A stretch of 64,000 nt of DNA from a virus, in the IMG/VR virus record IMGVR_UViG_3300045988_155520, positions 1-64,000 of that record. One strand, 5' to 3'. Both the position numbers and the translations under genes were made by a program. The notes under the pieces were generated by a model. That model was not told the origin of the DNA, did not search any database, and worked only from the letters and a program-made list of their open reading frames with translations. Positions 1 through 35,031 of the stretch are shown here, piece by piece; the stretch's first letter is position 1; each line of letters begins with the position of its first letter.

Positions 1-64
1 GAGGGAGTCGAACCCCCGACCTCTGGGTTATGAGCCCAGCAAGCTACCACTGCTCTATCCTGCA
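1..64 (-). tRNA. tRNA-Met (anticodon CAT), 3' end cut by window edge
   Basis: RC folds as TGCAGGA-TA-GAGC-AGTGGTA-GCTT-G-CTGGG-CTCATAA-CCCAG-AGGTC-GGGGG-TTCGACT-CCCTC. Body is identical to the 418..489 copy. Three G:C pairs next to the loop are initiator-like. The 3' acceptor strand is off-window. Confidence 0.8.
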
Positions 65-198
65 ATAATTATGTGATTCAGGTAATACTCTATTTTATAA
101 TGTCATAATACCATACTTCTTTGGACGAGAGTGTTGTCCACCTATGCTTGCATTACTCGGTGGCACTCTCTTGAAAGCCTTCTTAAGATACTTTCATG

Positions 199-272
199 CG
201 CTTCAGGCAGGACTTGAACCTGCGACTTCCTGATTAACAGTCAGGTGCTCTAACCAACTGAGCTACTAAAGC
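199..272 (-). tRNA. tRNA-Asn (GTT)
   Basis: RC: GCTTTAG-TA-GCTC-AGTTGGTTA-GAGC-A-CCTGA-CTGTTAA-TCAGG-AAGTC-GCAGG-TTCAAGT-CCTGC-CTGAAGC-G. All stems pair. Confidence 0.9.
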
Positions 273-277
273 ATTTG

Positions 278-348
278 TTGAGACAATAGGATTCGAACCT
301 ATAATGGCAGGACCAAAACCTACTGTGTTACCATTACACCATATCTCA
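278..348 (-). tRNA. tRNA-Gln (TTG)
   Basis: RC: TGAGATA-TG-GTGT-AATGGTA-ACAC-A-GTAGG-TTTTGGT-CCTGC-CATT-ATAGG-TTCGAAT-CCTAT-TGTCTCA-A. Confidence 0.9.
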
Positions 349-417
349 AAGTTAAGGAAACATTATTATTTTTATTCTATAAAAAAAGAGAAAATCTGCT
401 GTTTGTTTCCTAAGTAG

Positions 418-489
418 TTGGGGGAGAGGGAGTCGAACCCCCGACCTCTGGGTTATGAGCCCAGCAAGCTACCACTGCTCCATCCCCTA
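418..489 (-). tRNA. tRNA-Met (CAT), second copy with a different acceptor stem
   Basis: RC: TAGGGGA-TG-GAGC-AGTGGTA-GCTT-G-CTGGG-CTCATAA-CCCAG-AGGTC-GGGGG-TTCGACT-CCCTC-TCCCCCA-A. One A:C mismatch at 2:71. Initiator, elongator or Ile2 identity cannot be decided from sequence. Confidence 0.85.
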
Positions 490-499
490 ATAAAATTAC

Positions 500-620
500 A
501 CCTCACTATCGGACTTGAACCGATGACTCACGGATTATAAGTCAATTTTAAAATTTGCTGTTCTTTTCCATATAGGAAAAATTTTAGTAACGTCGCTCTA
601 ACCTACTGAGCTAAGTGAGG
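500..620 (-). tRNA. tRNA-Ile (TAT) interrupted by a 47-nt insert (544..590) in the anticodon stem
   Basis: RC exon 1 (620..591) is CCTCACT-TA-GCTC-AGTAGGTTA-GAGC-G-ACG. RC exon 2 (543..500) is GA-CTTATAA-TCCGT-GAGTC-ATCGG-TTCAAGT-CCGAT-AGTGAGG-T. Joining them restores an ACGGA/TCCGT anticodon stem and a canonical 74-nt cloverleaf. Confidence 0.6.
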
Positions 621-627
621 TGTTTTG

Positions 628-701
628 CAGTGCATACGAGATTCGAACTCGTGACCTTCGCCGTGACAGGGCGGTATTCTAACCTACTGAACTAATGCAC
701 T
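628..701 (-). tRNA. tRNA-Asp (GTC)
   Basis: RC: AGTGCAT-TA-GTTC-AGTAGGTTA-GAAT-A-CCGCC-CTGTCAC-GGCGA-AGGTC-ACGAG-TTCGAAT-CTCGT-ATGCACT-G. Confidence 0.9.
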
Positions 702-933
702 AATTTAACTCCTATTTTTAATATAGGATTATGTTTTTTTATAATTTGGTTGTAACGTTACCAACGTAGCTATCAAGAATTTATGTCGACTAAATTCTAT
801 CAATTACTGAATTAGTTTTTTATAAAATTACACTTAGCATCATTCTTAGCTAAGAAACCATTTACATGGGTATTACGTTTTGTAATGCATGAGTTATTTA
901 CCACATTGTATAATCAATGTGAATCGAACTCAA

Positions 934-1127
934 GACTCGAAGAACTAAACATATTCAAAGTAGATAAACTACTTATTCTACATTCACTCCTTGCAGTGTA
1001 CTGCAAGTTTCTTCGAGTTGATAATAATACTTCATTTGCTTTTTCAACGTTTAAGTTTATTAGCCTCAAAAGCACCATTACCAGCTTGTTTTAAGAGCTA
1101 TTCTCGTAACACGGTTACAAGTACTCT
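934..1127 (-). ncRNA. Unclassified structured RNA candidate, copy A (paralog at 34831..35025)
   Basis: About 195 nt aligns end to end with the second intergenic copy. At least three helices carry compensatory changes. Imperfect positions become G:U only on the minus strand. No credible ORF is shared by both copies. Confidence 0.5.
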
Positions 1128-1137
1128 GTATGAAAAG

Positions 1138-1210
1138 TACGCCCACTGAGACTCGAACTCAGGACTCCAGCATTAAAAGTGCTGTGCTCTACCAACTGAG
1201 CTATGAGCGC
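1138..1210 (-). tRNA. tRNA-Lys (TTT)
   Basis: RC: GCGCTCA-TA-GCTC-AGTTGGTA-GAGC-A-CAGCA-CTTTTAA-TGCTG-GAGTC-CTGAG-TTCGAGT-CTCAG-TGGGCGT-A. Confidence 0.9.
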
Positions 1211-1230
1211 ATTCTGTTGTTCCAACAAGT

Positions 1231-1297
1231 CAAAGAACTCTTATTTCTTAATTGTGATGCAAAGATACTAACTTTTTCTGAAACCTCCAAATTTTTC
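1231..1297 (-). promoter_or_regulatory. Bacteroidota-type promoter module for the tRNA island (identical copy at 4148..4214)
   Basis: RC contains TTTG, a 20-nt spacer, then TATCTTTG (plus 1260..1267), matching -33 TTTG / -7 TAnnTTTG. The 67 nt are identical to the second copy. Confidence 0.6.
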
Positions 1298-1308
1298 AGT
1301 GATTTTTT

Positions 1309-1542
1309 TTATTTTATTTTGATAAAATCATTATTTTGGTTGATTTTTCTTAGTAAATCGTTAATATATTCACATTTTATGCATTTTTGAGGTTTTACAT
1401 CTTTCTTGTCACTAATATCTATATCTATTAAGTATTCATGTCCATCAGTAGCTATAATTTTGTATTCAGCTATTTTCTTTTCTATAACACATCTTAATTC
1501 TGCATGACCATTTAATAATGGTGTAAGGTTGTCTACTGTCAT
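1309..1542 (-). CDS. hypothetical protein (77 aa)
   Basis: ATG ORF in the dominant gene direction. No recognisable motif. Confidence 0.45.
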   Translation of the reverse strand: MTVDNLTPLLNGHAELRCVIEKKIAEYKIIATDGHEYLIDIDISDKKDVKPQKCIKCEYINDLLRKINQNNDFIKIK

Positions 1543-1867
1543 TATTGTCTAATTGTAAATGTACTAAAAAAGCTGCTAAATCAACTTTTGTTTAAGTTTA
1601 TTCAACAGCTTGGAAATATATTTAGTGAAGTAAGTGCAAAAACCTTTTTAATTTAGGTTATACATTCATATAAATTCCGTATTGTTGAAATACTATTATT
1701 ATCTATGTCGTATTCAAAAAACATAGCATCATTATCATACTTGTTGGATGTAACAAATATGTTATGCTGATTACTTTGTTTATTTGATGTACGTATCATT
1801 TTTTATATGAATTTTATTATAAATATAACCTATGTATCGAAAGTTACTTATTTTGTAAATATTTTTT

Positions 1868-2077
1868 TTATTCTGGCTTAATTTCCTGTGGAATCAAAGC
1901 TGTTATTTCTACTTCCAACGCTTCTGATAATTTTACCAATGTATCTAATCTTGGATTTCCACCTTTTAATGTTCTTGTTAAAGAAGCAGGTTCAACACCC
2001 ATCTTTGTAGATACATCTTTTAATTTCATGCGTTTTCTCTTACATATATCTTTTATCCAATTTTCAAATCCGTTCAT
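1868..2077 (-). CDS. XRE/Cro-type helix-turn-helix DNA-binding protein
   Basis: 69 aa. KLKDVSTKMGVEPASLTRTLKGGNPRLDTLVKLSEAL fits the HTH_3 pattern. Confidence 0.7.
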   Translation of the reverse strand: MNGFENWIKDICKRKRMKLKDVSTKMGVEPASLTRTLKGGNPRLDTLVKLSEALEVEITALIPQEIKPE

Positions 2078-2245
2078 ATATTTATTTTTTTTATTAATAA
2101 ATATATCTTAAGTTGACTTTTTTATCAACACATCACACTTTTTTATTGATTAATTTGAAATTATTGATAATTGTATATTGTTTTATACAAAAAATCACCA
2201 CAAGCAGAAACAAATCTAACTTATGGTGAAAATTGAGTTATGATG

Positions 2246-2319
2246 TGATGGAGGCGAGACTCAAACTCGCAACCCACAGCTTAGAAGGCTGTTGCTCTAT
2301 TCAGTTGAGCTACTCCACC
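2246..2319 (-). tRNA. tRNA-Arg (TCT)
   Basis: RC: GGTGGAG-TA-GCTC-AACTGAATA-GAGC-A-ACAGC-CTTCTAA-GCTGT-GGGTT-GCGAG-TTTGAGT-CTCGC-CTCCATC-A. Confidence 0.9.
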
Positions 2320-2519
2320 GTGTTATCATTATTATCTGGCATTTCTTCTATAATCGTAACTTTTTTTCTACGATTTGAATGTTTACGCATTTCATTGTCA
2401 TGTTCGTTATCTTCCATAACATTATGTATTGTTCTACGTTTAGAATTTCGAATACCATTAATAAATATACCAAATGATATTAAAATTAGAATAATAAGCA
2501 AGATAATAATAATTCTCAT
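2310..2519 (-). CDS. small membrane protein (N-terminal TM helix, charged tail)
   Basis: MRIIIILLIILILISFGIFI hydrophobic start, then a K/R/E/D-rich tail. The stop overlaps the tRNA-Arg 5' end by 10 nt. Confidence 0.4.
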   Translation of the reverse strand: MRIIIILLIILILISFGIFINGIRNSKRRTIHNVMEDNEHDNEMRKHSNRRKKVTIIEEMPDNNDNTVE

Positions 2520-2839
2520 ATTTTTTGTTTTTTATCTGATAACTAAATTAGGTTACGGAAATCATTACAGCGATTTCAAACTGAATAAGTCTATAAAACT
2601 TATGTGCATCAGAAGATAAATAAATCCTATAATTATAAGTGCTGTACGTAACCAATAGTTGTTTCTTTAATTGTATTGACCACCAAGTGAAAATTAGGTT
2701 AAGAAGCGCAAGACTCTCCAGTCTCGAATCATTTTATATTTAATGTGAGAATCTGAAAATCTCATTGCAGTATTTAAAATACTTAACATTCTCACTATTA
2801 GTGGTCTTTACAAATTAATTGTTATCAGTTTAAATCAGT

Positions 2840-3886
2840 TTACTGTACTGGTTCAACAATCACTACTCGTGCTGAGTACTTTCCTGTCTTACCGAATCCC
2901 TTTGAATTACGTACATTTACATTTCGCTGTGTAAGATAATTAGCTACAACTGTTGCACGACGTTCTGAAAGATTCTGATTGTAAGTCTCACTACCTACAC
3001 CATCAGCATAGCCGTCTACTGTTACATATGTATCTGCAGCGATACTATTGAGAACATTCTTTGCATCATTGCTAAGTTCTGCATTATCATTATCGAAAGC
3101 GATAACGTAAACATTCTGCTTAACAACATTCTGCTTTTCTACAATCTTCTCTACAACCTTTGTAACTTCCTTTGGCTTCTTAGACATGTCGTTGCGAAGT
3201 ACATTGATTTCATTGTTATAGTCACCAATATTATACATCTTAAAATTATGTGTACCATTAGATGTCTTAAACTTGTAATCAACACCGACCTGAACACCCA
3301 TTTGTGCTGCTGAACTACCAAATTGTACAGCATCACCTGGACCATGTGTCATGTTCCAATAAACTCCAGGCTGTACAAATACACGCCATACCCTTGCATC
3401 ACCAAGGTTAAAGGCAAACTCGATTGCTGTCTTTGCAGTGAGTTCGTCTCCATCACCCATATTATTATTATATGAACGATGTGAACCATTAAGGAATACT
3501 AACCATCCAATACCAGTTACTGAACTAACTTCGAATCTGCGGGGTGTACCAGTGTAGCCAAAAAGGAGGTTACTCCAATTAATTGTACCATTCATTTCAG
3601 CATTTACAGCCTTAACAAATGTATGAGAGTCATTTACGTAATTGTCACCAAGAGCAGCTACACCTGCAAATTGGATACCAAATACTGGACTAATCTCTTT
3701 TCCAACACGTACTCCAACAGAACTGTTGAGAGGAAATACCTTATTAAGCTTCATGTTGGTGTGTGCACCACCCATTACACCTACATAAGTGTTATCCAAC
3801 AATTTTGGACTTTGAAGTGCTGTCTGTGCATTTGCACTAACAAAACTCATCATTGAGATGAGTGTCATAAAAATAAACTTCTTCAT
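2840..3886 (-). CDS. OmpA-family outer-membrane protein (signal peptide, beta-barrel-like N domain, OmpA C domain)
   Basis: Signal peptide MKKFIFMTLISMMSFVSANAQ. C-terminal VDGYADGVGSETYNQNLSERRATVVANYL is the OmpA/MotB peptidoglycan-binding signature. Confidence 0.85.
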   Translation of the reverse strand: MKKFIFMTLISMMSFVSANAQTALQSPKLLDNTYVGVMGGAHTNMKLNKVFPLNSSVGVRVGKEISPVFGIQFAGVAALGDNYVNDSHTFVKAVNAEMNGTINWSNLLFGYTGTPRRFEVSSVTGIGWLVFLNGSHRSYNNNMGDGDELTAKTAIEFAFNLGDARVWRVFVQPGVYWNMTHGPGDAVQFGSSAAQMGVQVGVDYKFKTSNGTHNFKMYNIGDYNNEINVLRNDMSKKPKEVTKVVEKIVEKQNVVKQNVYVIAFDNDNAELSNDAKNVLNSIAADTYVTVDGYADGVGSETYNQNLSERRATVVANYLTQRNVNVRNSKGFGKTGKYSARVVIVEPVQ

Positions 3887-3923
3887 TCTTATTATTTAAA
3901 AATTAAAAATTGGTTTTCAAATG

Positions 3924-3996
3924 TTGCGACAACAGGAATCGAACCTATGACTACGACTATAATTTTGTCGTCGAGATACCACTTCTCCATGTCACA
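3924..3996 (-). tRNA. Atypical tRNA with a 9-nt anticodon loop (best reading UAU, Ile-like)
   Basis: RC: TGTGACA-TG-GAGA-AGTGGTA-TCTC-G-ACGAC-AAAATTATA-GTCGT-AGTC-ATAGG-TTCGATT-CCTGT-TGTCGCA-A. All four stems pair but the loop has 9 nt instead of 7. Confidence 0.55.
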
Positions 3997-4147
3997 TATT
4001 AAGGAAACAAAAATGCGTGCTACCGTTACACCAGAAGGACTATTCAAAGTCACATTTTTGGAATCGAACCAAAATCTCATGAACCCTATTCAATTTCTTT
4101 TGCTGTATGTTTCCTCATTATATTTGACAAATCTAATATTTCTCTTT

Positions 4148-4214
4148 CAAAGAACTCTTATTTCTTAATTGTGATGCAAAGATACTAACTTTTTCTGAAA
4201 CCTCCAAATTTTTC
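4148..4214 (-). promoter_or_regulatory. Second copy of the 67-nt promoter module (drives the tRNA-like region and the OmpA gene)
   Basis: Identical to 1231..1297. The -7 box TATCTTTG is the RC of 4177..4184. Confidence 0.6.
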
Positions 4215-4227
4215 GGTAACTTTTTTC

Positions 4228-4272
4228 TAAAAAAAATGCGAAAAGCTGATGTCTTCTCAGATTATCAGCTTT
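4228..4272 (-). terminator. intrinsic terminator
   Basis: 9-bp stem AAAGCTGAT (4242-4250) / ATCAGCTTT (4264-4272), followed on the minus strand by TCGCATTTTTTTT. Confidence 0.55.
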
Positions 4273-4382
4273 CCTTTTCTTCTTTCTATAAAAATCCACA
4301 TTGAAAAATAACCTAAAAATCAAAGTAAAACAAATTGTACTTTAAAAAACAATATGGTTATTTTTCACCCATCATCCATATG

Positions 4383-4540
4383 TGAACTACCCATGAGTTA
4401 AATACTCATAGGCTTCGGGTTTCATCGAAGAATGGCTTTCCAAAAGGTCGGCTCTTACTTCCCATCCACCCGTGTAATCGACTGTTCCTGCCGATAGTAC
4501 CTTACATTCCACAAACTAAAGACTTGTGGGCTTTACGTTA
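4383..4540 (-). mobile_element. tnpB-less miniature IS200/IS605-type element (MITE-like) carrying an omega-RNA-like module
   Basis: 4383..4495 aligns base for base (113 nt) with the tnpB 3' end and right end at 17148..17260. 4496..4538 carries a left-end-type hairpin CCACAA-actaaagac-TTGTGG, homologous to the hairpin at 32347..32369. Confidence 0.6.
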
Positions 4541-4586
4541 CTATATATAAATATAGTGAAATTTATTTTATTATCAATACTATTTG

Positions 4587-6152
4587 CTATTTTTTTTGAA
4601 AAAAAATAGCAAACTTTTCTCCACCATACTCTCCATTAGTCAACTTTATAATCTCTCTAATGGTGTATTTGTCCTTATGAGGACTTGGTAGTTTATTCTC
4701 GATGAAATATCTTGTACCAGTCAAACAAGCACCAGTGATGGTACGATATGCAGCGATAGCTTCCTCAACAGATAATGTATCATCCAATGACAAGTTCTTA
4801 TAAGCAGAAGTATCTCTATCATTTATCTTATATATAAGGTCAGATTTAGCTTCTGCAAGTGTATCACCATGCGCCCAATGACCTTCTCCATCTGTAACAA
4901 GATAAAATGTTCTATCTCCTTGAAAGAGTTTATGTACCTTGTATACATTATCATGATGTGCTTCAATAACTGAGAAAATACCATCAGCTTTAATATATTC
5001 CACACCATCTCTCTTCCAAAATACAACTTTATTCTTCTCTTCTTTTGATAAATCGTTATTGGGAATATATATTTTGTTATTCATTTTAATATGCCCATAA
5101 ACTTTTAGATTATCTGGAAATTTTGTAATTTTTGTATCATTGAGGAATATATTACCATTTACCGTCAAATTATCAGGTAATTCTTTAATTTTTGTATTAC
5201 GTAGGATAAGGTTATCTCCTACTGTCAAATTATCAGGTAACTCAGTGATATCTGTATCACTTATATCAAGACATCCACCAACAATTAAGTTATTAGGTAA
5301 CTTTTTAATATGAGTTTCACCTAAAACTAAGTTCCCTGCTACTATAAAACTATCAGGCAGCTCTGTGATATCTGTATTTTGTAAATGTACACTTTCACCA
5401 ACCTTTAAATTGTCTGGTAATTTTGTTATATTAGTATAGCTTAAAAAAATAATTTTCTCAACAGTTAAATTATTAGGCAGCTCTGTGATATCTGTATTAT
5501 TTAGATACAAAACTCCGTGTACTGTAAAATTATCAGGTAGTCTTTTTATATCTGAAAATCTTAAGTCGATGTCTTGACCAACGCTTAAGCTGTCAGGAAG
5601 TTCCGTGATAAGTGTATTCTTTAAATTAAGATAACCCGTAACTGTTAAATTATCAGGCAACTTCGTTAACTTTGTATCCTCTACGTTTAAATTCCCTCTA
5701 ACAGTTAAATTGTTAGGGAGTTCTGTAAGAGACGTATTGTTTAAGTAGATACTTTCTCCTACGATTAAACTATCTGGAAGTTCTCTAATATCTGTATGTC
5801 CTGCAAAAAGAGAACCCTTAACTGTTAAGTTGTCTGGAAGTTTTTTAATATCTGTAAAACTTACATCAAGGTCTTCACCAACACTTAAGTTGTCAGGGAG
5901 TTTTCTAATGTCGGTATATTCAATAAAAAGACAGCCCATAACGTTTAAGTTATTAGGTAACTTTTTAATAGCCGATTTGCGCAAGTTAAGATGTCTATAG
6001 ATAGTTAAATTGTCAGGTAACTCTGTGATATTTGTACCAGTTAAATTAAGACTCCCATTATAAATTAATTTCCCATCCTTAACGGTGAGTTCATACCCAG
6101 TTTCTTCCTCGAATCTTTCTATTATTTCGTTCATATTTTTATTCATAACCAT
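4587..6152 (-). CDS. leucine-rich-repeat protein with a conserved C-terminal domain of unknown function
   Basis: Many tandem roughly 23-aa LPDNLTVxGxLxLxxTxITE units. The C-terminal ~150 aa (FWKRDGVEYIKADGIFSV...GTRYFIENKLP...) are shared with 12008..13234. Confidence 0.8.
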   Translation of the reverse strand: MVMNKNMNEIIERFEEETGYELTVKDGKLIYNGSLNLTGTNITELPDNLTIYRHLNLRKSAIKKLPNNLNVMGCLFIEYTDIRKLPDNLSVGEDLDVSFTDIKKLPDNLTVKGSLFAGHTDIRELPDSLIVGESIYLNNTSLTELPNNLTVRGNLNVEDTKLTKLPDNLTVTGYLNLKNTLITELPDSLSVGQDIDLRFSDIKRLPDNFTVHGVLYLNNTDITELPNNLTVEKIIFLSYTNITKLPDNLKVGESVHLQNTDITELPDSFIVAGNLVLGETHIKKLPNNLIVGGCLDISDTDITELPDNLTVGDNLILRNTKIKELPDNLTVNGNIFLNDTKITKFPDNLKVYGHIKMNNKIYIPNNDLSKEEKNKVVFWKRDGVEYIKADGIFSVIEAHHDNVYKVHKLFQGDRTFYLVTDGEGHWAHGDTLAEAKSDLIYKINDRDTSAYKNLSLDDTLSVEEAIAAYRTITGACLTGTRYFIENKLPSPHKDKYTIREIIKLTNGEYGGEKFAIFFQKK

Positions 6153-6682: not shown

Positions 6683-7871
6683 TACCAATTAATTCTCGAC
6701 TAACAATTCTTTCATTATTATTTGTAAGTCCATTAATTGCTTGAGTCATTTGTTTCTCACATTCAATAATCTTTGCTTCTGCATCCATACGTTTCTTTTT
6801 GCCTTCCTCCTGTACTTTTTGTACTCCTTGGATTGTTTCTATTAAATCCCTTGTTGTTTTCATCAGTGTTTCAGCATCAAGAACTGTACGTTGATTCTGT
6901 TTTGCAACTTCTATTGATTGTGTCTTCATCATTTCTGAGTTGCTAACTAATGATTTATTAATAGCATCGTAAACAGCTTGCTTCGCCTTAATACTTTGCT
7001 GCTGGTTATATAATGCTACTGTTAGAGATAACTGATTTTTCCAGAATGGAATCAACATCAAAACCTGTGATTCTGTATTATTTGCATCTTGCAGGTTAGT
7101 TTGCTGAATAATTCTAATCTGATATAATGACTGGTTGAATGCATGATGTAGCATTACAAGGTCTGTAACACGCTTTTCTAATGCTTCCTTAAAGTTGTTA
7201 GTATCATTAATATCAATCATGTCAGAGCCGTTTGTACGCATCGTATTCAACTCCTCCTCCAGTTCTTCCACCTTGAATTTACCTGCAATAATCAATTGTT
7301 CCAACTGGTTTACATAATCTTTATTATTAATGAACTGTTGTTCGAGAAGATTGTTATCACGTAAAGCAATTGCTCGTGTTGCTTCAAGTTTTTGTTTGAT
7401 ATTCTCTACATTCTTTTCAATTGTGTTATATTTCGCTTTTATTTCAGCTACAGACGTTACAAAACCCTTAGTGAGTGGAAATGACATTAAGAACTTTTTA
7501 ATGCGTGTAGGAGTCTTAAAATCATTAACATCAATATTCTCCAGTTCACCCATTAATTTACTAATAAGTTTTGAAGTATCTCCACTTACTGTTGATGTCA
7601 TCTGATGTTGGAGAAGTTCACTTGAATATGAATCCATTACTTTTTGTAAATCTGAACCATAAGACATAACAGTCATAGGATTCTTTACATCCAAGCTTGA
7701 TGTTATATCTCTATACCGTTTCTTCTCGATAGTAGTCAAACCAGTAGTATCAACGTTGCCGTTTTCATCAATTCTCTTTGCTGGAAGATTAGATATTTCT
7801 ACATTTTGAATATTCTCTGACTTTTTTGTTTTCGTTGTAGATTTACTACTGTTCTTTTTAGATGCTGTCAT
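6669..7871 (-). CDS. telA: TelA-like (toxic anion resistance family) protein
   Basis: 400 aa and largely helical. The N-terminal LDVKNPMTVMSYGSDLQKVMDSYSSELL segment matches the TelA family pattern as I recall it. Confidence 0.65.
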   Translation of the reverse strand: MTASKKNSSKSTTKTKKSENIQNVEISNLPAKRIDENGNVDTTGLTTIEKKRYRDITSSLDVKNPMTVMSYGSDLQKVMDSYSSELLQHQMTSTVSGDTSKLISKLMGELENIDVNDFKTPTRIKKFLMSFPLTKGFVTSVAEIKAKYNTIEKNVENIKQKLEATRAIALRDNNLLEQQFINNKDYVNQLEQLIIAGKFKVEELEEELNTMRTNGSDMIDINDTNNFKEALEKRVTDLVMLHHAFNQSLYQIRIIQQTNLQDANNTESQVLMLIPFWKNQLSLTVALYNQQQSIKAKQAVYDAINKSLVSNSEMMKTQSIEVAKQNQRTVLDAETLMKTTRDLIETIQGVQKVQEEGKKKRMDAEAKIIECEKQMTQAINGLTNNNERIVSRELIGNENK

Positions 7872-10286: not shown

Positions 10287-11939
10287 TTATTCAACTACAA
10301 TATAATTAAGAATCTCTTGAGTAAGTGCTTTATGCATTAACTCTTTCATACTCAATTTCTTCTTCTCACCTGTGTCGGTATCTACTTCTTCTCCACCTAA
10401 CAGTAAAGAAATAATAGAGCCATCAAAGCCACTCAAGAAATAACATCCGCCATCCTTAATTGTTGCAGGGAAGTCTGTATGACGAGAAGCACAATTCCAC
10501 CAAATGAATCTGAACTCATCAACAAATTCTTCTGGGAACACACTCTTCAATTTCTTCTTAGCCTCTTCATAATTAGTAGTATTTTCTACATCTGTAGATT
10601 GAATCCAATAATTATTTGTAGCATTGAATTGCATATCTGAAACCACCAAAAGTGTCTGAGGATAATCTGTAAGTGGGATTTCTGGATGTTTAGTCCTGAT
10701 TCTTACAATTTCATCAACAACTGATTGGAAATTAGTTCCACCCATTGCATTGTCAGGAATCTGCTTCATCATATCACAGAACTCACCCTTAAGCTGTAAT
10801 ACATGAGAGGTATCATCAAACATAATTACATTCTTATGGAACGCACCTGTATTAAGTGTTGAAAAATAAAGTCCTAATGAAAGACATATGTCTAATGCTG
10901 TAGTATCACCATATACACATGTATTCATAGAGCCAGAAGTATCTAAGGCACACCATACATTTCCATTTATATCTCCAATATTCTTTCCCTTTTCAATCAA
11001 CTCATTAAACTGCTTATTAATGGTTGCTGTAATATATTTAGGAAGAATTGAGATGTTATTCTTTCGATTATAATCAGTGGAACAATGTTTCTTCAAGTTT
11101 TTGATTAACTCATATGGATAACCTGTAAACTTGATATTATTCTGTTTAAGAACCCACTCTGTATATGAATCGACAAGGTCATGATTTGCTAAGAATTTAC
11201 CATTAGTAATCATACTTAATGCACGTCCTGGAATTGTATTCCAATTAATCTTATCATAATTTCTTGAACACATCAGTTTTTGGAAATCATGAGATGTACC
11301 AGATGTTTTAAGATGATTATATTCTTTATAAGACAAATTGAATAATTTAGCAAATTCTTTTGCATGCTTATTTGTAAGTTTATTCCAATCGGTCTTAATA
11401 TGAGATTTTGACTTAATGCGAGGCATGAACTTCTTAACAAGATTTACATGTGTATCACACTTTAGACCTTCATAGATGATTCTATAGATAGCCTCTCTAT
11501 CAATAGCATTGATATCAAGATGTTCATCATAATACATGATAGTCCATAAATCTTTCCAAGAGCCAATAAGAGGCAAAATCCACACGTTATTATTGAACAT
11601 ATCCTTATGATACTTTGCAAGCCATAGAAGTCTTTTAAAAGTCTCGTCACGCTGTCCTTGTCCACTCTGTACATTATCCGTAGAGGTCTCGTTATTAACT
11701 TTAACCTTTCGTGTAATCATTCTAAGATAGAATGGAAAGCGTGTTGCATACTCATGTGATTCATTCCAAAGTTTCTCTTGGTCTGAAAATACATCTGAAA
11801 CATTACGTCCACGATAATTACCAGCTAAACCAAACTGATTAACTAACTCACTTCCTGTTGAAGCCATTGTAAGTGCACCATTCTCAGTAAAAGTATACTG
11901 ATTAAACTTTGTTGCCTCGATAAATAAATTCTGTGACAT
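10287..11939 (-). CDS. DUF2828-like protein with a C-terminal vWA domain (TROVE/Ro60-like architecture)
   Basis: N-terminal FTENGALTMASTGS...GQGQRDETFKRLLWLAKYH...IGSWKDLW matches the DUF2828 pattern. ALDTSGSM is a vWA MIDAS DxSxS motif. Confidence 0.65.
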   Translation of the reverse strand: MSQNLFIEATKFNQYTFTENGALTMASTGSELVNQFGLAGNYRGRNVSDVFSDQEKLWNESHEYATRFPFYLRMITRKVKVNNETSTDNVQSGQGQRDETFKRLLWLAKYHKDMFNNNVWILPLIGSWKDLWTIMYYDEHLDINAIDREAIYRIIYEGLKCDTHVNLVKKFMPRIKSKSHIKTDWNKLTNKHAKEFAKLFNLSYKEYNHLKTSGTSHDFQKLMCSRNYDKINWNTIPGRALSMITNGKFLANHDLVDSYTEWVLKQNNIKFTGYPYELIKNLKKHCSTDYNRKNNISILPKYITATINKQFNELIEKGKNIGDINGNVWCALDTSGSMNTCVYGDTTALDICLSLGLYFSTLNTGAFHKNVIMFDDTSHVLQLKGEFCDMMKQIPDNAMGGTNFQSVVDEIVRIRTKHPEIPLTDYPQTLLVVSDMQFNATNNYWIQSTDVENTTNYEEAKKKLKSVFPEEFVDEFRFIWWNCASRHTDFPATIKDGGCYFLSGFDGSIISLLLGGEEVDTDTGEKKKLSMKELMHKALTQEILNYIVVE

Positions 11940-17147: not shown

Positions 17148-17260
17148 TGAACTACCAATGAACTAAAAACTCATTGGCTTCGGGCTTCATAGAGGAATGG
17201 CTTTCCAGAAGGTTAGCTCTTACTTCCTCTCCACCCGTGTAATCGACAGTCCCTGCCGAT
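17148..17260 (-). ncRNA. omega-RNA (reRNA)-like scaffold overlapping the tnpB 3' end and right end
   Basis: This 113-nt block is conserved in the two tnpB-less copies (4383..4495 and 27669..27781). The terminal hairpin covaries: CCAATGAG/TTCATTGG vs CCTATGAG/CTCATGGG. The position matches known TnpB guide-RNA genes. Confidence 0.55.
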
Positions 17261-18360
17261 GTGTTATTATTTAATCCGATACGAAGAATGTTAATTGCAG
17301 CATTAACATCACGGTCATGATGAGTATGACAAATCGGACACTCCCACTCACGAACAGATAAATCTTTAATATCTTTGTTGACATGCCCACAAACATTACA
17401 AGTCTGAGAGGATGGAAAGAATCTGTCTACCTTCACAATCTTCTTGCCGTTCCATTCAGCTTTATAAGTTAGCATAGTAACAAAGCTACCCCAGCCTGCA
17501 TCAGTAACGGACTTGGCAATACGATGATTCTTAACCATACCCTTTACATTCAGGTCTTCGATACAGATGGTATCATATCTTCTAACAAGAGAGATAGAAC
17601 ACTTATGTAGATAGTCAGCACGACTATTGGCAATTTTCTCATGAAGTCGGGCAACTTTGAGTTTTTGGCTTTCAAACCCTCTGCTACCTTTCTTCTTACG
17701 AGAAAGATGACGCTGTGCTTTTGCAAGTTTATGTTCGTATCTTCTGGTATATCGGTTATTCTTAAAAGTTTCCCCATATGAAGTGATAAGCAAGTTCTTC
17801 AAGCCCATATCCACACCAACTGATTTGCCTGTCTTCTTGAGAGGAGTTTCGTATTCTTCTTCCGTGAATACAGAAACTAAATATTTACTACTCGGAGTTT
17901 TTGTGATTATTATCTTCCCTATTTTCCCTTTTATCTCACGGTGCACACGGCACTTTATACCTTCAGTGAACTTGCGTATGAAAAGTCTTCCACCAGCTAC
18001 AGATGCCGATTGTGGAACGGTGAAACTGTTTTTAGAGTGTTTGGATTTAAAATTAGGAAACTTAGCACGCTTCTTAAAGAAATTGTTATAGGCTGCTTCA
18101 AGACTGCGGATAGCGAACTGCAGGGTTTGAGCGTTTACCTCCTTCAACCATGCAGTTTCTTCCTGCTTCTTTAATATGGTAAGCGTTTTAGCCTGCGCAT
18201 AGTAATTATCACTCTTACCAGTAAGTCTATATTGTTCCTTACGTTGATTGAGAAAGTAATTGTACACAAAACGAGTACATCCGAAATGCTTTGCCAGCAA
18301 TTCGGTTTGTGCCTTGTTCGGGTACAGTCTGAACTTATATGTTCTGTTTATCTTTCTCAT
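17152..18360 (-). CDS. tnpB: TnpB (IS605 OrfB-family RNA-guided nuclease), RuvC triad intact
   Basis: MRKINRTYKFRLYPNKAQTELL N-terminus. RuvC D (GVDMGLKN), E (ICIEDLNVKGM), Zn finger CNVCGH...CPICH, and D (DRDVNAAINI). Confidence 0.9.
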   Translation of the reverse strand: MRKINRTYKFRLYPNKAQTELLAKHFGCTRFVYNYFLNQRKEQYRLTGKSDNYYAQAKTLTILKKQEETAWLKEVNAQTLQFAIRSLEAAYNNFFKKRAKFPNFKSKHSKNSFTVPQSASVAGGRLFIRKFTEGIKCRVHREIKGKIGKIIITKTPSSKYLVSVFTEEEYETPLKKTGKSVGVDMGLKNLLITSYGETFKNNRYTRRYEHKLAKAQRHLSRKKKGSRGFESQKLKVARLHEKIANSRADYLHKCSISLVRRYDTICIEDLNVKGMVKNHRIAKSVTDAGWGSFVTMLTYKAEWNGKKIVKVDRFFPSSQTCNVCGHVNKDIKDLSVREWECPICHTHHDRDVNAAINILRIGLNNNTSAGTVDYTGGEEVRANLLESHSSMKPEANEFLVHW

Positions 18361-22552: not shown

Positions 22553-22942
22553 TTATTTCTCTGCTTTTCTTTTTATTTCTTTCATTTTTTCTCTAAGCAA
22601 CTTTTTCTGTAATTCTTCAGCTATGATTTCTCCGTGACATCTTAGCGGTTTACAGAAACATTGTAGATATACGTCTTCTCCGTTTTTATAGTGCTGATAT
22701 ATTTCATCAAAATCATGTGTAAGATACGGGTCTATCCCATAAGCACTATCAAAGTATCTACGATAAGCATCAACTGCTTCATCTCTTGTTCTGAATGTTA
22801 GTTTAGCAAGATTACTTCTTTTACCATTAAATGTATATGGATTTCCAAGTGGATTTCCATTTTTACTTCTCCCTATATAGAAGTTATTTGGTTTTGAAGT
22901 ATGGTCTTCTTCTTTGCAATTATAAACAGTTATCTTACCCAT
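22553..22942 (-). CDS. DUF4326 domain protein
   Basis: FYIGRSKNGNPLGNPY ... YLQCFCKPLRCHGEII fits DUF4326. The start is moved to MGKITVY because the track extension to 23008 overlaps tRNA-Leu. Confidence 0.65.
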   Translation of the reverse strand: MGKITVYNCKEEDHTSKPNNFYIGRSKNGNPLGNPYTFNGKRSNLAKLTFRTRDEAVDAYRRYFDSAYGIDPYLTHDFDEIYQHYKNGEDVYLQCFCKPLRCHGEIIAEELQKKLLREKMKEIKRKAEK

Positions 22943-22975
22943 TTGTTTATGTTTAAATGTGAAACATTCAAGTAG

Positions 22976-23061
22976 TAGCTCGAACGGGAGTCGAACCCGT
23001 ACACTCATTTCTGAATATTGAATTTTAAGTCCAATGCGTCTACCTATTTCGCCATCGAGCC
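22976..23061 (-). tRNA. tRNA-Leu (TAA), long variable arm
   Basis: RC: GGCTCGA-TG-GCG-AAATAGGTAGA-CGC-A-TTGGA-CTTAAAA-TTCAA-(17-nt variable arm)-ACGGG-TTCGACT-CCCGT-TCGAGCT-A. Confidence 0.9.
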
Positions 23062-32327: not shown

Positions 32328-32458
32328 AAAATTTGGTTCATAGAAACCCAAAAGTCTTTAGATTTTGGGAGGAATTGAACCACTATTCCCTCTTTTAGTT
32401 ATCTTAATATAAATATAAATATTTCTTTCAAATATTTTATTTATTCAAATTTATTTTG

Positions 32459-32466
32459 TATCTTTG
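32459..32466 (+). promoter_or_regulatory. -7 promoter box of the second tnpB (near-leaderless)
   Basis: TATCTTTG, 4 nt before the ATG at 32471. Confidence 0.5.
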
Positions 32467-32470
32467 CAGT

Positions 32471-33604
32471 ATGAAATTGACTTTGCAGATTAAACTGCTT
32501 CCGACTGACAAACAAGCTATAATGCTGAAAAATACTTTCAGCGTTTTCAATGAGGCTTGTAACGCTATTTCGCAGATAGCGTGGGAACGTCATGTATTCC
32601 AGCAATTTAGCCTGCATAAGGAAGTATATTATCAAACTAAAGAAACATATCACCTGTCTTCCCAACTTGTTGTACGTGCTATCAGCAAGGTTGCCGATAC
32701 ATACAAACTTGACAGGAAAAAGAAACGACACTTTAGAGAGTTTGGTGCTATCACTTATGATAGTCGTGTACTATCATATAAGACCACCAAAACTGTATGT
32801 TCCATGTCACTTGTTGGGAGTCGTGAAAAGATAGCATATACTTGCTACCGTCCACAACTCATGCAGTATGCTAAAGGTGAAGCTGACCTCGTGCTTATCA
32901 GAGGGAAGTTCTATTTGCACCAGACAATAGACATCCCTGATGAGAAAGAAGAAATTGCAGATGAATTTATTGGTGTTGACATGGGTCTTACCGATATCGT
33001 TTCTCTATCTGATGGAACTAATATATCTTCCAAAGAAGTCAAAATCATAAGAAATAAATACAACAAAGTGAGAGCTTCTGTTCAGTCTAAAGGCACACGT
33101 AACTGTCATAAGTTACTGAAACGGTTAAAAGGGCGTGAAAGAAGATTTGCCACTATTACCAATCACCGTATAAGCAAACAAATTGTAGCTAAAGCAAAAA
33201 AAGAACACAAGGGCATTGCCATTGAGGATTTGAAGAATATCCGCTGGGGTATGAACACTAAGAAACGTAATAAAACATTTCGCAGAAGAAGCAACTCTTG
33301 GTCTTTCTATCAACTCCGTTCTTTCCTTGAATACAAATGTAAGATTACTGGCATCAAGATTGTTGCTGTTCCTCCAGCTTATACGTCACAGACTTGTAAT
33401 GAGTGTGGTCACATTGGCATTCGTAATGGTAAACACTTCCGTTGTACACACTGTGGTAATGTTTTAGATGCAGATGTTAATGCTGCTAAGAATATTGCTA
33501 CATGGGGGTATGTAAACACCCATGAAAGATGGGAATTATTGTCTTGTTATATAAATGATAATAATTTCACGTCTAAAGTCCGCAAATCTTTAGTTTGTGG
33601 ATAG
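32471..33604 (+). CDS. tnpB: TnpB (IS605 OrfB family, second subtype), RuvC triad intact
   Basis: D (GVDMGLTDI), E (IAIEDLKNI), Zn finger CNECGH...CTHCG, and D (DADVNAAKNI). The track start at 32456 is a TTG. Confidence 0.9.
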   Translation: MKLTLQIKLLPTDKQAIMLKNTFSVFNEACNAISQIAWERHVFQQFSLHKEVYYQTKETYHLSSQLVVRAISKVADTYKLDRKKKRHFREFGAITYDSRVLSYKTTKTVCSMSLVGSREKIAYTCYRPQLMQYAKGEADLVLIRGKFYLHQTIDIPDEKEEIADEFIGVDMGLTDIVSLSDGTNISSKEVKIIRNKYNKVRASVQSKGTRNCHKLLKRLKGRERRFATITNHRISKQIVAKAKKEHKGIAIEDLKNIRWGMNTKKRNKTFRRRSNSWSFYQLRSFLEYKCKITGIKIVAVPPAYTSQTCNECGHIGIRNGKHFRCTHCGNVLDADVNAAKNIATWGYVNTHERWELLSCYINDNNFTSKVRKSLVCG

Positions 33605-34830: not shown

Positions 34831-35025
34831 CATTCGAAGAATTAAATTTACTCAAAAGTAGATAAACCACTTCCTATACATTCACTCCTTGTAATTCTTT
34901 TACAAGTTTCTTCGAAACGATAATAATACTTTATTCGCCTTTCAACATTTAAGTTTCTTAGGATAAACAGTACCATTACCAAATTATTTAAAGAGCGATT
35001 CTCGTAACACAGTTACAAGTACTCT
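34831..35025 (-). ncRNA. Unclassified structured RNA candidate, copy B
   Basis: Aligns with 934..1127 and shows compensatory changes. It lies between a 15-bp hairpin and the start of the 34781 gene. Confidence 0.5.
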
Positions 35026-35031
35026 ATTTTC

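What the first reader, a model, noticed from the sequence alone, without database searches (positions are those of the whole stretch)
500..620. tRNA-Ile(UAU) gene split by a 47-nt structured insert inside the anticodon stem (between positions 29 and 30)
- Both halves are canonical, with perfect acceptor, D and T arms.
- Removing exactly 544..590 restores the ACGGA/TCCGT anticodon stem and the CTTATAA loop. No other junction works.
- The insert folds on itself: TTTTCC-tatat-GGAAAA nested inside TAAAA/TTTTA.
- It is far too short for a group I or group II intron, and its position is the kind otherwise known from archaeal non-canonical introns.
- An AUA-reading tRNA is exactly what an AT-rich phage would want to supply. 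A decaying pseudogene is therefore not the only reading. A phage-specific excision or tolerance mechanism is possible.
Basis: partly seen in the sequence, partly recalled or inferred. Interest (0 to 1): 0.7.

Follow-up and report, generated by a model that had tools for sequence, protein, structure and literature searches.

The report
Phage tRNA gene with 47-base insert
One tRNA gene in a phage that probably infects Prevotella carries a 47-base hairpin-forming insert inside its anticodon stem; every known relative has it too, it fits no known intron type, and it most likely leaves an expressed but non-decoding tRNA-like RNA, although real splicing cannot be excluded.

Summary
On the minus strand, 620..500 is a complete tRNA (Rfam tRNA model, 43.6 bits). 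It is interrupted between positions 29 and 30 by 47 nt (590..544). Only that exact deletion restores a 5-bp anticodon stem.

- All related contigs found (12 distinct alleles) carry the insert, at 44-48 nt. No insert-free allele was found.
- The anticodon is not stable. It is TGT in three lineages and probably ancestral, TAT twice (including this window) and TTT once.
- The same arrays already hold intact tRNA-Ile(UAU), Thr(UGU) and Lys(UUU).
- Acceptor, D and T stems and the insert hairpin stay paired. The anticodon arm and the rest of the insert change about as fast as the spacers.
- The insert is not a group I intron, has no archaeal bulge-helix-bulge (BHB) motif, matches no Rfam ribozyme and is not a repeat.
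- No RNA ligase or splicing endonuclease is encoded in the window or in the array flanks of four relatives.

Most likely this is a redundant tRNA paralogue disabled by an old clean insertion. It is still transcribed and end-processed into a roughly 120-nt tRNA-like RNA. Protein-dependent splicing remains possible. The closest precedent is the unexplained tRNA introns of Lak megaphages, which also infect Prevotella.

The parts
591..620 (-). 5' exon: acceptor 5' strand, D arm, position 26, and the first 3 nt (ACG, positions 27-29) of the anticodon stem
   Evidence: Conserved in all alleles apart from changes in the D loop, position 5 (A to G, giving G.U), position 26 and position 27.
544..590 (-). 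47-nt insert between tRNA positions 29 and 30 (44-48 nt in relatives)
   Evidence: Homologous insert at the same junction in every related contig found. Single copy in the window and in each related locus examined.
564..580 (-). Insert hairpin TTTTCC-TATAT-GGAAAA (6-bp stem, extendable to 7-8 bp in some alleles)
   Evidence: Stem kept in 10 of 11 alleles, with the loop-closing pair lost in L121; loop positions vary.
550..569 (-). Motif GGAAAAGAACAGCAAATTTT in the 3' half of the insert, shared with the spacer 3' of tRNA-Met
   Evidence: The pattern GGAAANNAACAGCANATTTT has exactly two perfect matches in the 64 kb, here and at 391-410, both on the minus strand. Local alignment score reached by 25 of 2000 shuffles.
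500..543 (-). 3' exon: GA (positions 30-31), anticodon loop CTTATAA (541..535; anticodon TAT = 539..537), TCCGT, variable loop, T arm, acceptor 3' strand, discriminator T
   Evidence: Positions 32 and 35 each show three states among relatives.
391..410 (-). Spacer copy of the motif (GGAAACAAACAGCAGATTTT), 3' of tRNA-Met: possible source of part of the insert
627..701 (-). tRNA-Asp(gtc), 6 nt upstream in the same polycistronic array
417..489 (-). tRNA-Met(cat), 10 nt downstream in the same array

Best explanation
This is a redundant tRNA paralogue that was disabled as a decoder. It has a tRNA-Ile-like body, and its discriminator (U73) and probable ancestral anticodon (UGU) are Thr-like. A single clean insertion of about 45 nt went into the 5' strand of its anticodon stem in the common ancestor of a clade of AT-rich phages whose host is probably Prevotella.

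Proposed working, all inferred:
- The gene lies 6 nt after tRNA-Asp and 10 nt before tRNA-Met, so it is transcribed with the array.
- Its intact acceptor/T/D 'top half' lets RNase P, the 3'-end processing enzymes and the CCA-adding enzyme release a stable RNA of about 120 nt.
- In that RNA the 3+2-bp split anticodon stem is out-competed by other pairings. The anticodon is therefore not presented, and it drifts (TGT to TAT or TTT).
- The top half and the small insert hairpin stay folded.

Shown: the structure, the clade-wide fixation, the redundancy, the pattern of substitutions, and the lack of any known intron signature. Inferred: transcription, end processing and the lack of decoding.
For: - Real tRNA with a unique clean junction.
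- Present in all related contigs found: 10 IMG/VR contigs, 9 metagenome contigs and 5 further assemblies, giving 12 distinct alleles. No insert-free allele turned up in three scans that would have caught one.
- The anticodon changes identity among close relatives. L099 differs from L096 only at position 35 across the gene. L001 and L002 differ at 14 of 1761 nt, and 2 of those lie in the 7-nt anticodon loop.
- Intact tRNA-Ile(tat), Thr(tgt) and Lys(ttt) occur in the same arrays, including the array that carries the window's own allele.
- The anticodon arm has 3 variable positions of 17, including an uncompensated 27:43 U.U in the L114 lineage. The insert has about 14 variable columns of 48 plus indels. 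Spacers show 13-39% variable columns.
- The unspliced cloverleaf is 5-10 kcal/mol worse than the minimum-energy fold in all six alleles tested.
- No BHB motif (read directly from the sequence), no group I/II or ribozyme match, and no ligase or endonuclease domains in 97 ORFs.
- Other tRNA genes in these arrays are also hit by insertions: a TnpB element next to a truncated tRNA-Gly, and a 212-nt element inside tRNA-Met.
Against: - The exons do not look like a freely decaying pseudogene. 98.7% of stem cells pair across 11 alleles, two T-stem pairs changed on both sides and stayed paired, and acceptor pair 5:68 changed to G.U.
- Insert length varies (44, 45, 47, 48 nt), yet the exon junctions are never eroded.
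- The anticodon loop keeps U33, U34, U36, A37 and A38. All changes fall on positions 32 and 35.
- All three anticodons read codons the phage uses heavily: ATA 30, ACA 30 and AAA 60 per thousand. These points fit a working, spliced tRNA equally well.
- Caveat on the covariation: the new T arm shares 15 nt (GTGGTTCGAGTCCAC) with the tRNA-Phe T arm in the same arrays. One gene-conversion event could mimic compensatory change.
- Only about half of a genome of roughly 130 kb was screened for enzymes.
Confidence: 0.45

Rival explanations
1. It is a true intron. A protein endonuclease, from phage or host, cuts at both junctions and an RNA ligase (RtcB-type or Rnl-type) reseals the nick inside the anticodon stem. 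The product is a functional tRNA whose anticodon has been retargeted among UGU, UAU and UUU.
For: - Exact excision restores a perfect cloverleaf in all 12 alleles despite indels in the insert.
- The stems are kept, with compensatory or wobble changes.
- Canonical loop features (U33, A37) are invariant, and the substitutions concentrate on the identity-defining position 35.
- All three anticodons serve abundant A-ending codons.
- Precedent: Lak megaphages of Prevotella carry short, conserved, unexplained tRNA introns (PMC6784885).
Against: - No protein-spliced tRNA intron is known in bacteria or phages (my knowledge; literature searches found none).
- No BHB motif.
- No ligase, kinase or EndA domain in the window or array flanks.
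- Intact genes with the same anticodons make it redundant.
- The 27:43 pair is lost in one lineage.
- The two junction sequences share no motif.
Confidence: 0.25
2. It is a tRNA-derived non-coding RNA kept for a non-decoding job. It could act as a decoy or sponge for host tRNA-targeting defence nucleases or tRNA-modifying toxins, or as a tRNA scaffold that stabilises and displays the embedded hairpin. The insert would keep it off the ribosome.
For: - The top half (acceptor, T and D arms) and the hairpin stem are conserved while the anticodon region varies. Known tRNA-like modules such as the tmRNA tRNA-like domain and YrlA show this pattern (the comparison rests on my knowledge).
- Recurrent changes at positions 32 and 35 could reflect an arms race.
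- The phage encodes a protein matching PHROG 850, annotated 'RNA-binding protein', at 10287-11939.
Against: - No partner protein or target has been identified.
- The hairpin is small, AT-rich and single copy.
- The covariation is thin and could come from gene conversion.
- The weak YrlA match (21.5 bits against a gathering score of 69) spans two neighbouring genes and only reflects tRNA-likeness.
Confidence: 0.2
3. The insert acts at the DNA level, for example as an internal promoter or terminator for the downstream tRNAs or as a remnant end of an IS200/IS605 (TnpB) element. The tRNA was simply the landing site.
For: - The insert starts with TTAC. In relatives, TnpB elements sit directly after TTAC at the 3' end of tRNA-Glu.
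- Clade B and L114-type alleles have TAAATTTG at the insert/exon junction, which fits the Bacteroidota -7 box TAnnTTTG (read directly).
- TnpB copies are abundant in and around these arrays.
Against: - Similarity to the TnpB element ends is no better than for shuffled sequence.
- No sigma-70-type promoter or intrinsic terminator lies in the insert.
- The TAnnTTTG match is absent from the window's own allele.
- The insert is not repeated anywhere.
Confidence: 0.07

Closest known systems
'Enigmatic' tRNA introns of Lak megaphages (Devoto et al. 2019, Nat Microbiol, PMC6784885)
   Same: Both are short, non-group-I intervening sequences in tRNA genes of large AT-rich phages, and Lak phages infect Prevotella, the probable host here. 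Both are conserved among relatives, match nothing in Rfam and have no known mechanism. In both, the exons restore a normal cloverleaf.
   Different: Lak introns are 79-114 nt and sit in the anticodon loop at 37/38. They contain an internal tRNA-like domain (an acceptor-like stem plus a T arm) and are present in some genomes and absent in others. The insert here is 44-48 nt, sits inside the anticodon stem at 29/30, has only one small hairpin, and was found in every relative. No sequence homology was established.
Archaeal non-canonical tRNA introns (bulge-helix-bulge, cut by EndA and joined by RtcB)
   Same: Short, protein-dependent introns occur at non-canonical positions, including 29/30.
   Different: A BHB motif cannot form here, no EndA or RtcB was found in the sequence screened, and the host is bacterial.
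Bacterial and phage group I introns in tRNA genes
   Same: Both interrupt a bacterial-type tRNA gene.
   Different: Group I introns are about 200 nt or longer, lie in the anticodon loop and have a conserved catalytic core. None of this applies here.
Pseudo-tRNAs and tRNA-like stable RNAs in phage tRNA clusters (for example T4 species 1 and 2 RNAs; cited from my knowledge)
   Same: They are encoded inside a tRNA array, are co-transcribed and end-processed like tRNAs, do not decode, and have no known function.
   Different: In this case the exons still add up to a perfect tRNA, and the disruption is one clean insertion.
Intervening sequences of bacterial 23S rRNA (excised by RNase III, no religation)
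   Same: Both are a hairpin insert within a helix of a stable RNA.
   Different: The rRNA sequences form long duplexes that RNase III can cut. This stem is only 6-8 bp and AT-rich, and a tRNA nicked in its anticodon stem is not expected to decode.

Membership tests
tRNA (Rfam RF00005) | Cloverleaf scoring above the family gathering score | tested here: met
   43.6 bits against a gathering score of 29, model positions 1-71, with a 58-nt insertion in the anticodon arm. The spliced sequence gives a perfect ARAGORN cloverleaf.
Group I intron in tRNA | Catalytic core P3-P9, about 200 nt or longer, matching Rfam Intron_gpI | tested here: not met
   The insert is 47 nt. No Rfam match other than tRNA (and the weak YrlA match noted elsewhere) at E<=1 over 1-5000, or at gathering score over the whole window.
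Group I intron in tRNA | Location in the anticodon loop | tested here: not met
   The junction lies between positions 29 and 30, inside the stem.
Archaeal/eukaryal BHB intron | Two 3-nt bulges carrying the splice sites, separated by a 4-bp helix | tested here: not met
   Read directly from the sequence. The 4 exon bases before the 5' bulge (GCGA) would have to pair with the 4 intron bases before the 3' bulge (AAAA), and they cannot. The outer helix cannot form either.
Archaeal/eukaryal BHB intron | EndA-type splicing endonuclease and RtcB-type or Trl1-type ligase available | tested here: inconclusive
   No such Pfam domains in the 65 window ORFs or the 32 ORFs flanking arrays in relatives. However, only about half of a genome of roughly 130 kb was screened, and the host genome was not screened at all.
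Lak-type phage tRNA intron | Short non-group-I insert in a phage tRNA gene that leaves restorable exons | tested here: met
Lak-type phage tRNA intron | Position 37/38 and an internal tRNA-like domain (acceptor-like stem plus T arm) | tested here: not met
   Table S6 of PMC6784885 compared with the insert sequence: the position here is 29/30, and there is no T-arm-like hairpin.
Lak-type phage tRNA intron | Presence/absence polymorphism among related genomes | tested here: not met
   No insert-free allele in IMG/VR. No match at all in one representative genome for each of 185,579 species.
Decaying tRNA pseudogene | Stem-disrupting substitutions accumulate at the neutral rate | tested here: not met
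   98.7% of stem cells are paired across 11 alleles, and the T-stem changes are compensatory. Only 27:43 (one lineage) and one hairpin pair (one allele) are broken. Spacers show 13-39% variable columns.
Decaying tRNA pseudogene | Redundant with intact isoacceptor genes, and anticodon not conserved | tested here: met
IS200/IS605-derived miniature element (PATE) | Multiple copies, with ends similar to the LE/RE of resident TnpB elements | tested here: not met
   Single copy. Alignment to LE and RE scores no better than shuffled sequence. Only the leading TTAC matches the elements' target motif.

The most novel reading that the evidence does not exclude
Phages that infect Prevotella use a tRNA-splicing pathway that is neither group I nor BHB. 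A protein endonuclease plus a nick-sealing RNA ligase would remove a hairpin intron of about 47 nt from inside the anticodon stem (29/30). The 212-nt structured element that splits tRNA-Met at position 4/5 in sister genomes may be removed the same way. The spliced tRNA would be a 'swappable-anticodon' copy that the phage retunes among the heavily used ACA, AUA and AAA codons.
Probability: 0.18. Interest if true: 0.9.

Novelty: new variant of a known kind. Interest (0 to 1): 0.55.

Why it matters
No protein-dependent tRNA splicing is known in bacteria or their viruses. The only precedent for short tRNA introns in phages, the Lak megaphages, has had no explanation since 2019.

This case adds a second, structurally different example from a different phage clade whose host is probably the same genus. 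It has a mid-stem junction that would leave exactly the kind of duplex nick that Rnl2-type ligases seal. If it is spliced, that would reveal a new RNA-processing pathway and give phage RNA ligases a natural substrate.

If it is not spliced, it is a clear example of a phage keeping an expressed, folded, non-decoding tRNA-like RNA. It is also a practical warning: standard tRNA finders miss this gene, and a call of 'tRNA-Ile(UAU)' would be misleading.

Tried and rejected
- **Group I/II intron or known ribozyme:** no Rfam match.
- **BHB motif:** cannot form, read directly from the sequence.
- **ARAGORN intron mode:** it gives only an implausible tRNA-Phe(aaa) solution.
- **Repeated mobile element:** the hairpin and the whole insert are single copy in the window and in 12 related loci.
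- **Remnant of TnpB element ends:** alignment to LE and RE is not better than shuffles.
- **Sigma-70 promoter or intrinsic terminator in the insert:** none.
- **YrlA / Y-RNA:** the 21.5-bit match spans the end of tRNA-Asp and the 5' exon and only reflects tRNA-likeness.
- **Covariation inside the insert:** none. RNAalifold finds only invariant pairs there.
- **Anticodon loop co-varying with the intact tRNA-Thr loop in the same genome:** holds in some genomes and fails in L096, L114, L116, L120 and L126.
- **Insert-free alleles or a host copy:** 0 matches in IMG/VR for the uninterrupted junction, only insert-bearing copies for exon-only patterns, and 0 matches in 185,579 species genomes.
- **Other interrupted tRNAs of this type:** a custom split-tRNA scan of the window and 12 related loci, later extended to four more loci, found only this gene.
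- **More distant relative:** L112 (58% identity in the OmpA-like protein) has a different gene order and no homologue within 10 kb.
- **GenBank phages:** no close relative.

Full report
**1. Observation**

The feature lies on the minus strand. Read 5'->3' it is:
- 5' exon, 620..591: CCTCACT-TA-GCTC-AGTAGGTTA-GAGC-G-ACG.
- Insert, 590..544, 47 nt: TTACTAAAATTTTTCCTATATGGAAAAGAACAGCAAATTTTAAAATT.
- 3' exon, 543..500: GA-CTTATAA-TCCGT-GAGTC-ATCGG-TTCAAGT-CCGAT-AGTGAGG-T.

The Rfam tRNA model aligns 620..500 end to end at 43.6 bits (gathering score 29, E=4.6e-7), with a 58-nt insertion in the anticodon arm. ARAGORN misses the gene as it stands. It calls a perfect tRNA-Ile(tat) once 590..544 is removed. 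Among all contiguous deletions, only this one gives a fully paired 5-bp anticodon stem.

The insert alone folds only into the hairpin TTTTCC/GGAAAA (-5.3 kcal/mol, z=-2.1). In the precursor, a cloverleaf with the split anticodon stem is 5-10 kcal/mol worse than the minimum-energy fold in six alleles. The outer TAAAA/TTTTA helix is not.

**2. Context**

The window is about 30% G+C and has no close relative among GenBank phages. It carries phage genes: a tail-fibre-like protein, two sigma factors, ClpP, a Mom-like protein, TelA, NAD synthase, two TnpB genes and a protein matching PHROG 850, annotated 'RNA-binding protein'.

Two clues point to a Prevotella or other Bacteroidota host. This is an inference.
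- An OmpA-like gene has homologues at 42-52% identity, and the one of these that carries an organism name is from Prevotella histicola (43% identity).
- The TnpB genes are preceded by TAnnTTTG-type boxes.

The interrupted gene sits in a tightly packed minus-strand tRNA array, 6 nt after tRNA-Asp and 10 nt before tRNA-Met.

**3. Relatives**

Pattern scans and protein-anchored look-ups recovered the gene from 10 IMG/VR contigs, 9 metagenome contigs and 5 further assemblies. These give 12 distinct alleles.

Every copy has the insert at the same junction, at 44, 45, 47 or 48 nt. Scans that would also have caught an uninterrupted copy found none. One representative genome for each of 185,579 bacterial and archaeal species gave no match.

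The relatives are close: 83-96% nucleotide identity in the flanks. Persistence alone is therefore weak evidence of function. In one contig the two ends meet inside the insert, which implies a circular genome of 129.9 kb. The window would then be about half a genome.

**4. How it evolves**

The 11-allele alignment is and the pair counts are.
- 98.7% of stem cells are paired.
- T-stem pairs 50:64 and 51:63 changed on both sides and stayed paired.
- Acceptor pair 5:68 became G.U.
- The D stem is invariant.
- The insert hairpin stem is kept in 10 of 11 alleles, while its loop varies.
- The anticodon arm shows an uncompensated 27:43 U.U in one lineage.
- Positions 32 and 35 each have three states. 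The loop reads CTTGTAA or TTTGTAA in three lineages, CTTATAA in the window/L116/L095 allele and, apparently independently, in L099, and ATTTTAA in L001/L100.
- L099 differs from L096 only at position 35. L001 and L002 differ at 14 of 1761 nt, two of them in this 7-nt loop.
- The insert has about 14 variable columns of 48 plus indels, which is within the spacer range of 13-39%.

In short, the top half behaves like a constrained tRNA, and the anticodon arm plus insert behave almost like spacer.

One caveat applies. The new T arm shares 15 nt with the tRNA-Phe T arm of the same arrays. One gene-conversion event could therefore imitate the compensatory changes.

**5. Identity and redundancy**

- The closest paralogue of the exons is the intact tRNA-Ile(tat) of sister genomes. 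Other phages carry an intact tRNA-Ile(gat) with the same acceptor stem.
- The discriminator is an invariant U, as in the phage's intact tRNA-Thr(tgt). The intact Ile(tat) has A.
- Arrays in relatives hold intact Thr(tgt), Lys(ttt) and either Ile(tat) or a CAT-type Ile2.
- The array that carries the window's own allele has all three of Ile(tat), Thr(tgt) and Lys(ttt).

The phage therefore does not depend on this gene to read AUA. ATA, ACA and AAA are nevertheless all heavily used codons, at 30, 30 and 60 per thousand.

**6. What it is not**

- Not a group I/II intron or a known ribozyme.
- Not a BHB intron: GCGA cannot pair with AAAA at the required positions (read directly from the sequence).
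- Not a repeated element.
- Not detectably a TnpB LE/RE remnant, although it starts with TTAC, the motif after which TnpB elements sit in these arrays.
- Not a sigma-70 promoter or a terminator.
- No RNA ligase, RtcB, polynucleotide kinase or EndA domain occurs in the 65 window ORFs or in 32 ORFs flanking the arrays of relatives.

The 3' half of the insert shares GGAAAnnAACAGCAnATTTT with the spacer 3' of tRNA-Met. These are the only two perfect matches in the 64 kb (25 of 2000 shuffles reach the alignment score). Part of the insert may therefore have been copied from that spacer. This is a lead, not a demonstration.

**7. Literature**

Searches found no described protein-spliced tRNA intron in bacteria or phages. 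The exception is the 'enigmatic', highly conserved introns of Lak megaphages of Prevotella. Table S6 of that paper shows they are 79-114 nt, lie at 37/38 and contain a tRNA-like domain. They represent the same kind of problem, but the anatomy differs.

**8. Verdict**

| Reading | Probability |
|---|---|
| Redundant tRNA paralogue disabled by an old clean insertion, still expressed and end-processed into a tRNA-like RNA of about 120 nt that does not decode | about 0.45 |
| Real splicing by unknown proteins | about 0.25 |
| Selected non-decoding role, such as decoy or scaffold | about 0.2 |
| DNA-level role | about 0.07 |

The finding is real and unusual. It is a new variant of the poorly understood class of short inserts in phage tRNA genes. 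A simple search for junction-spanning reads in RNA data would decide between the main readings.

Noticed in passing
window 937-1127 (-) and 34834-35027 (-); L004 about 6990-7201, L083, L093, L096, L097, L098, L102, L114: A structured non-coding element of about 190-212 nt has no Rfam match. RNAalifold on four copies gives 65 pairs, 7 of them with compensatory changes. In eight related contigs it cleanly splits the neighbouring tRNA-Met between acceptor positions 4 and 5 (TAGG | 211-212 nt | GGATGGAGC...). In the window, L116, L001-3, L005-6, L100-101 and L120 that tRNA-Met is intact. The window instead has two copies elsewhere. It looks like a mobile, intron-like or MITE-like RNA element that targets tRNA genes, and it is possibly more interesting than the 47-nt insert.
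   Followed up: partly
window 17152-18360 (-), 32456-33604 (+); L056 8848-10208; L003 5668-7005; L096 9570-10899: TnpB-only IS605-family elements are abundant in this clade. In relatives they sit directly after TTAC at the 3' end of tRNA-Glu. In L056 and L003 they abut a truncated 3' fragment of tRNA-Gly, and in L056 tRNA-Tyr and the 5' part of tRNA-Gly are missing.
   Followed up: partly
window 391-410 (-) and 550-569 (-): The 20-nt motif GGAAAnnAACAGCAnATTTT occurs exactly twice in the window: in the insert and in the spacer after tRNA-Met. That spacer also contains a long-range inverted repeat (TTAGGAAAC ... GTTTCCTTAA).
   Followed up: partly
window 3923-3996 (-): A tRNA with a 9-nt anticodon loop is called Asn(att) by ARAGORN. 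Its homologues in relatives are called Lys(ctt). It is an odd or shifting anticodon loop in a second gene of the array.
   Followed up: no
window 10287-11939 (-): A 550-aa protein matches PHROG 850 ('RNA-binding protein') and DUF7788. It has homologues at 27-31% identity in 680 GenBank phage records, some annotated as containing a von Willebrand factor A-like domain. Whether it is Ro60-like, and whether it has an RNA partner, was not settled.
   Followed up: partly
window 2840-3886 (-): An OmpA-family gene has homologues at 42-52% identity; the one that carries an organism name is from Prevotella histicola (43% identity). It is probably a host-derived gene and is the best clue to the host.
   Followed up: partly
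L106 1-37 and L130 6460-6523 (IMGVR_UViG_3300007648_000012): The two ends of this 129,927-bp contig meet inside the 44-nt insert of the interrupted tRNA. The contig is therefore probably a complete circular (or circularly permuted) genome of about 130 kb. Several other contigs of the clade are 200-300 kb, which is unexplained.
   Followed up: partly
L110 11445-12020 (unrelated 38-kb viral contig): The 5' part of a tRNA gene is followed by non-tRNA sequence, an intact tRNA-Val, an ORF that looks like an HNH-type endonuclease (read by eye, not scanned), and a tRNA 3' fragment. This looks like homing-endonuclease-driven shuffling of a tRNA array in a different phage.
   Followed up: no
window 22975-23061 (-) and ORF 22553-23008 (-): An isolated tRNA-Leu(taa) lies far from the main array and overlaps the start of a DUF4326 ORF by about 34 nt.
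   Followed up: no
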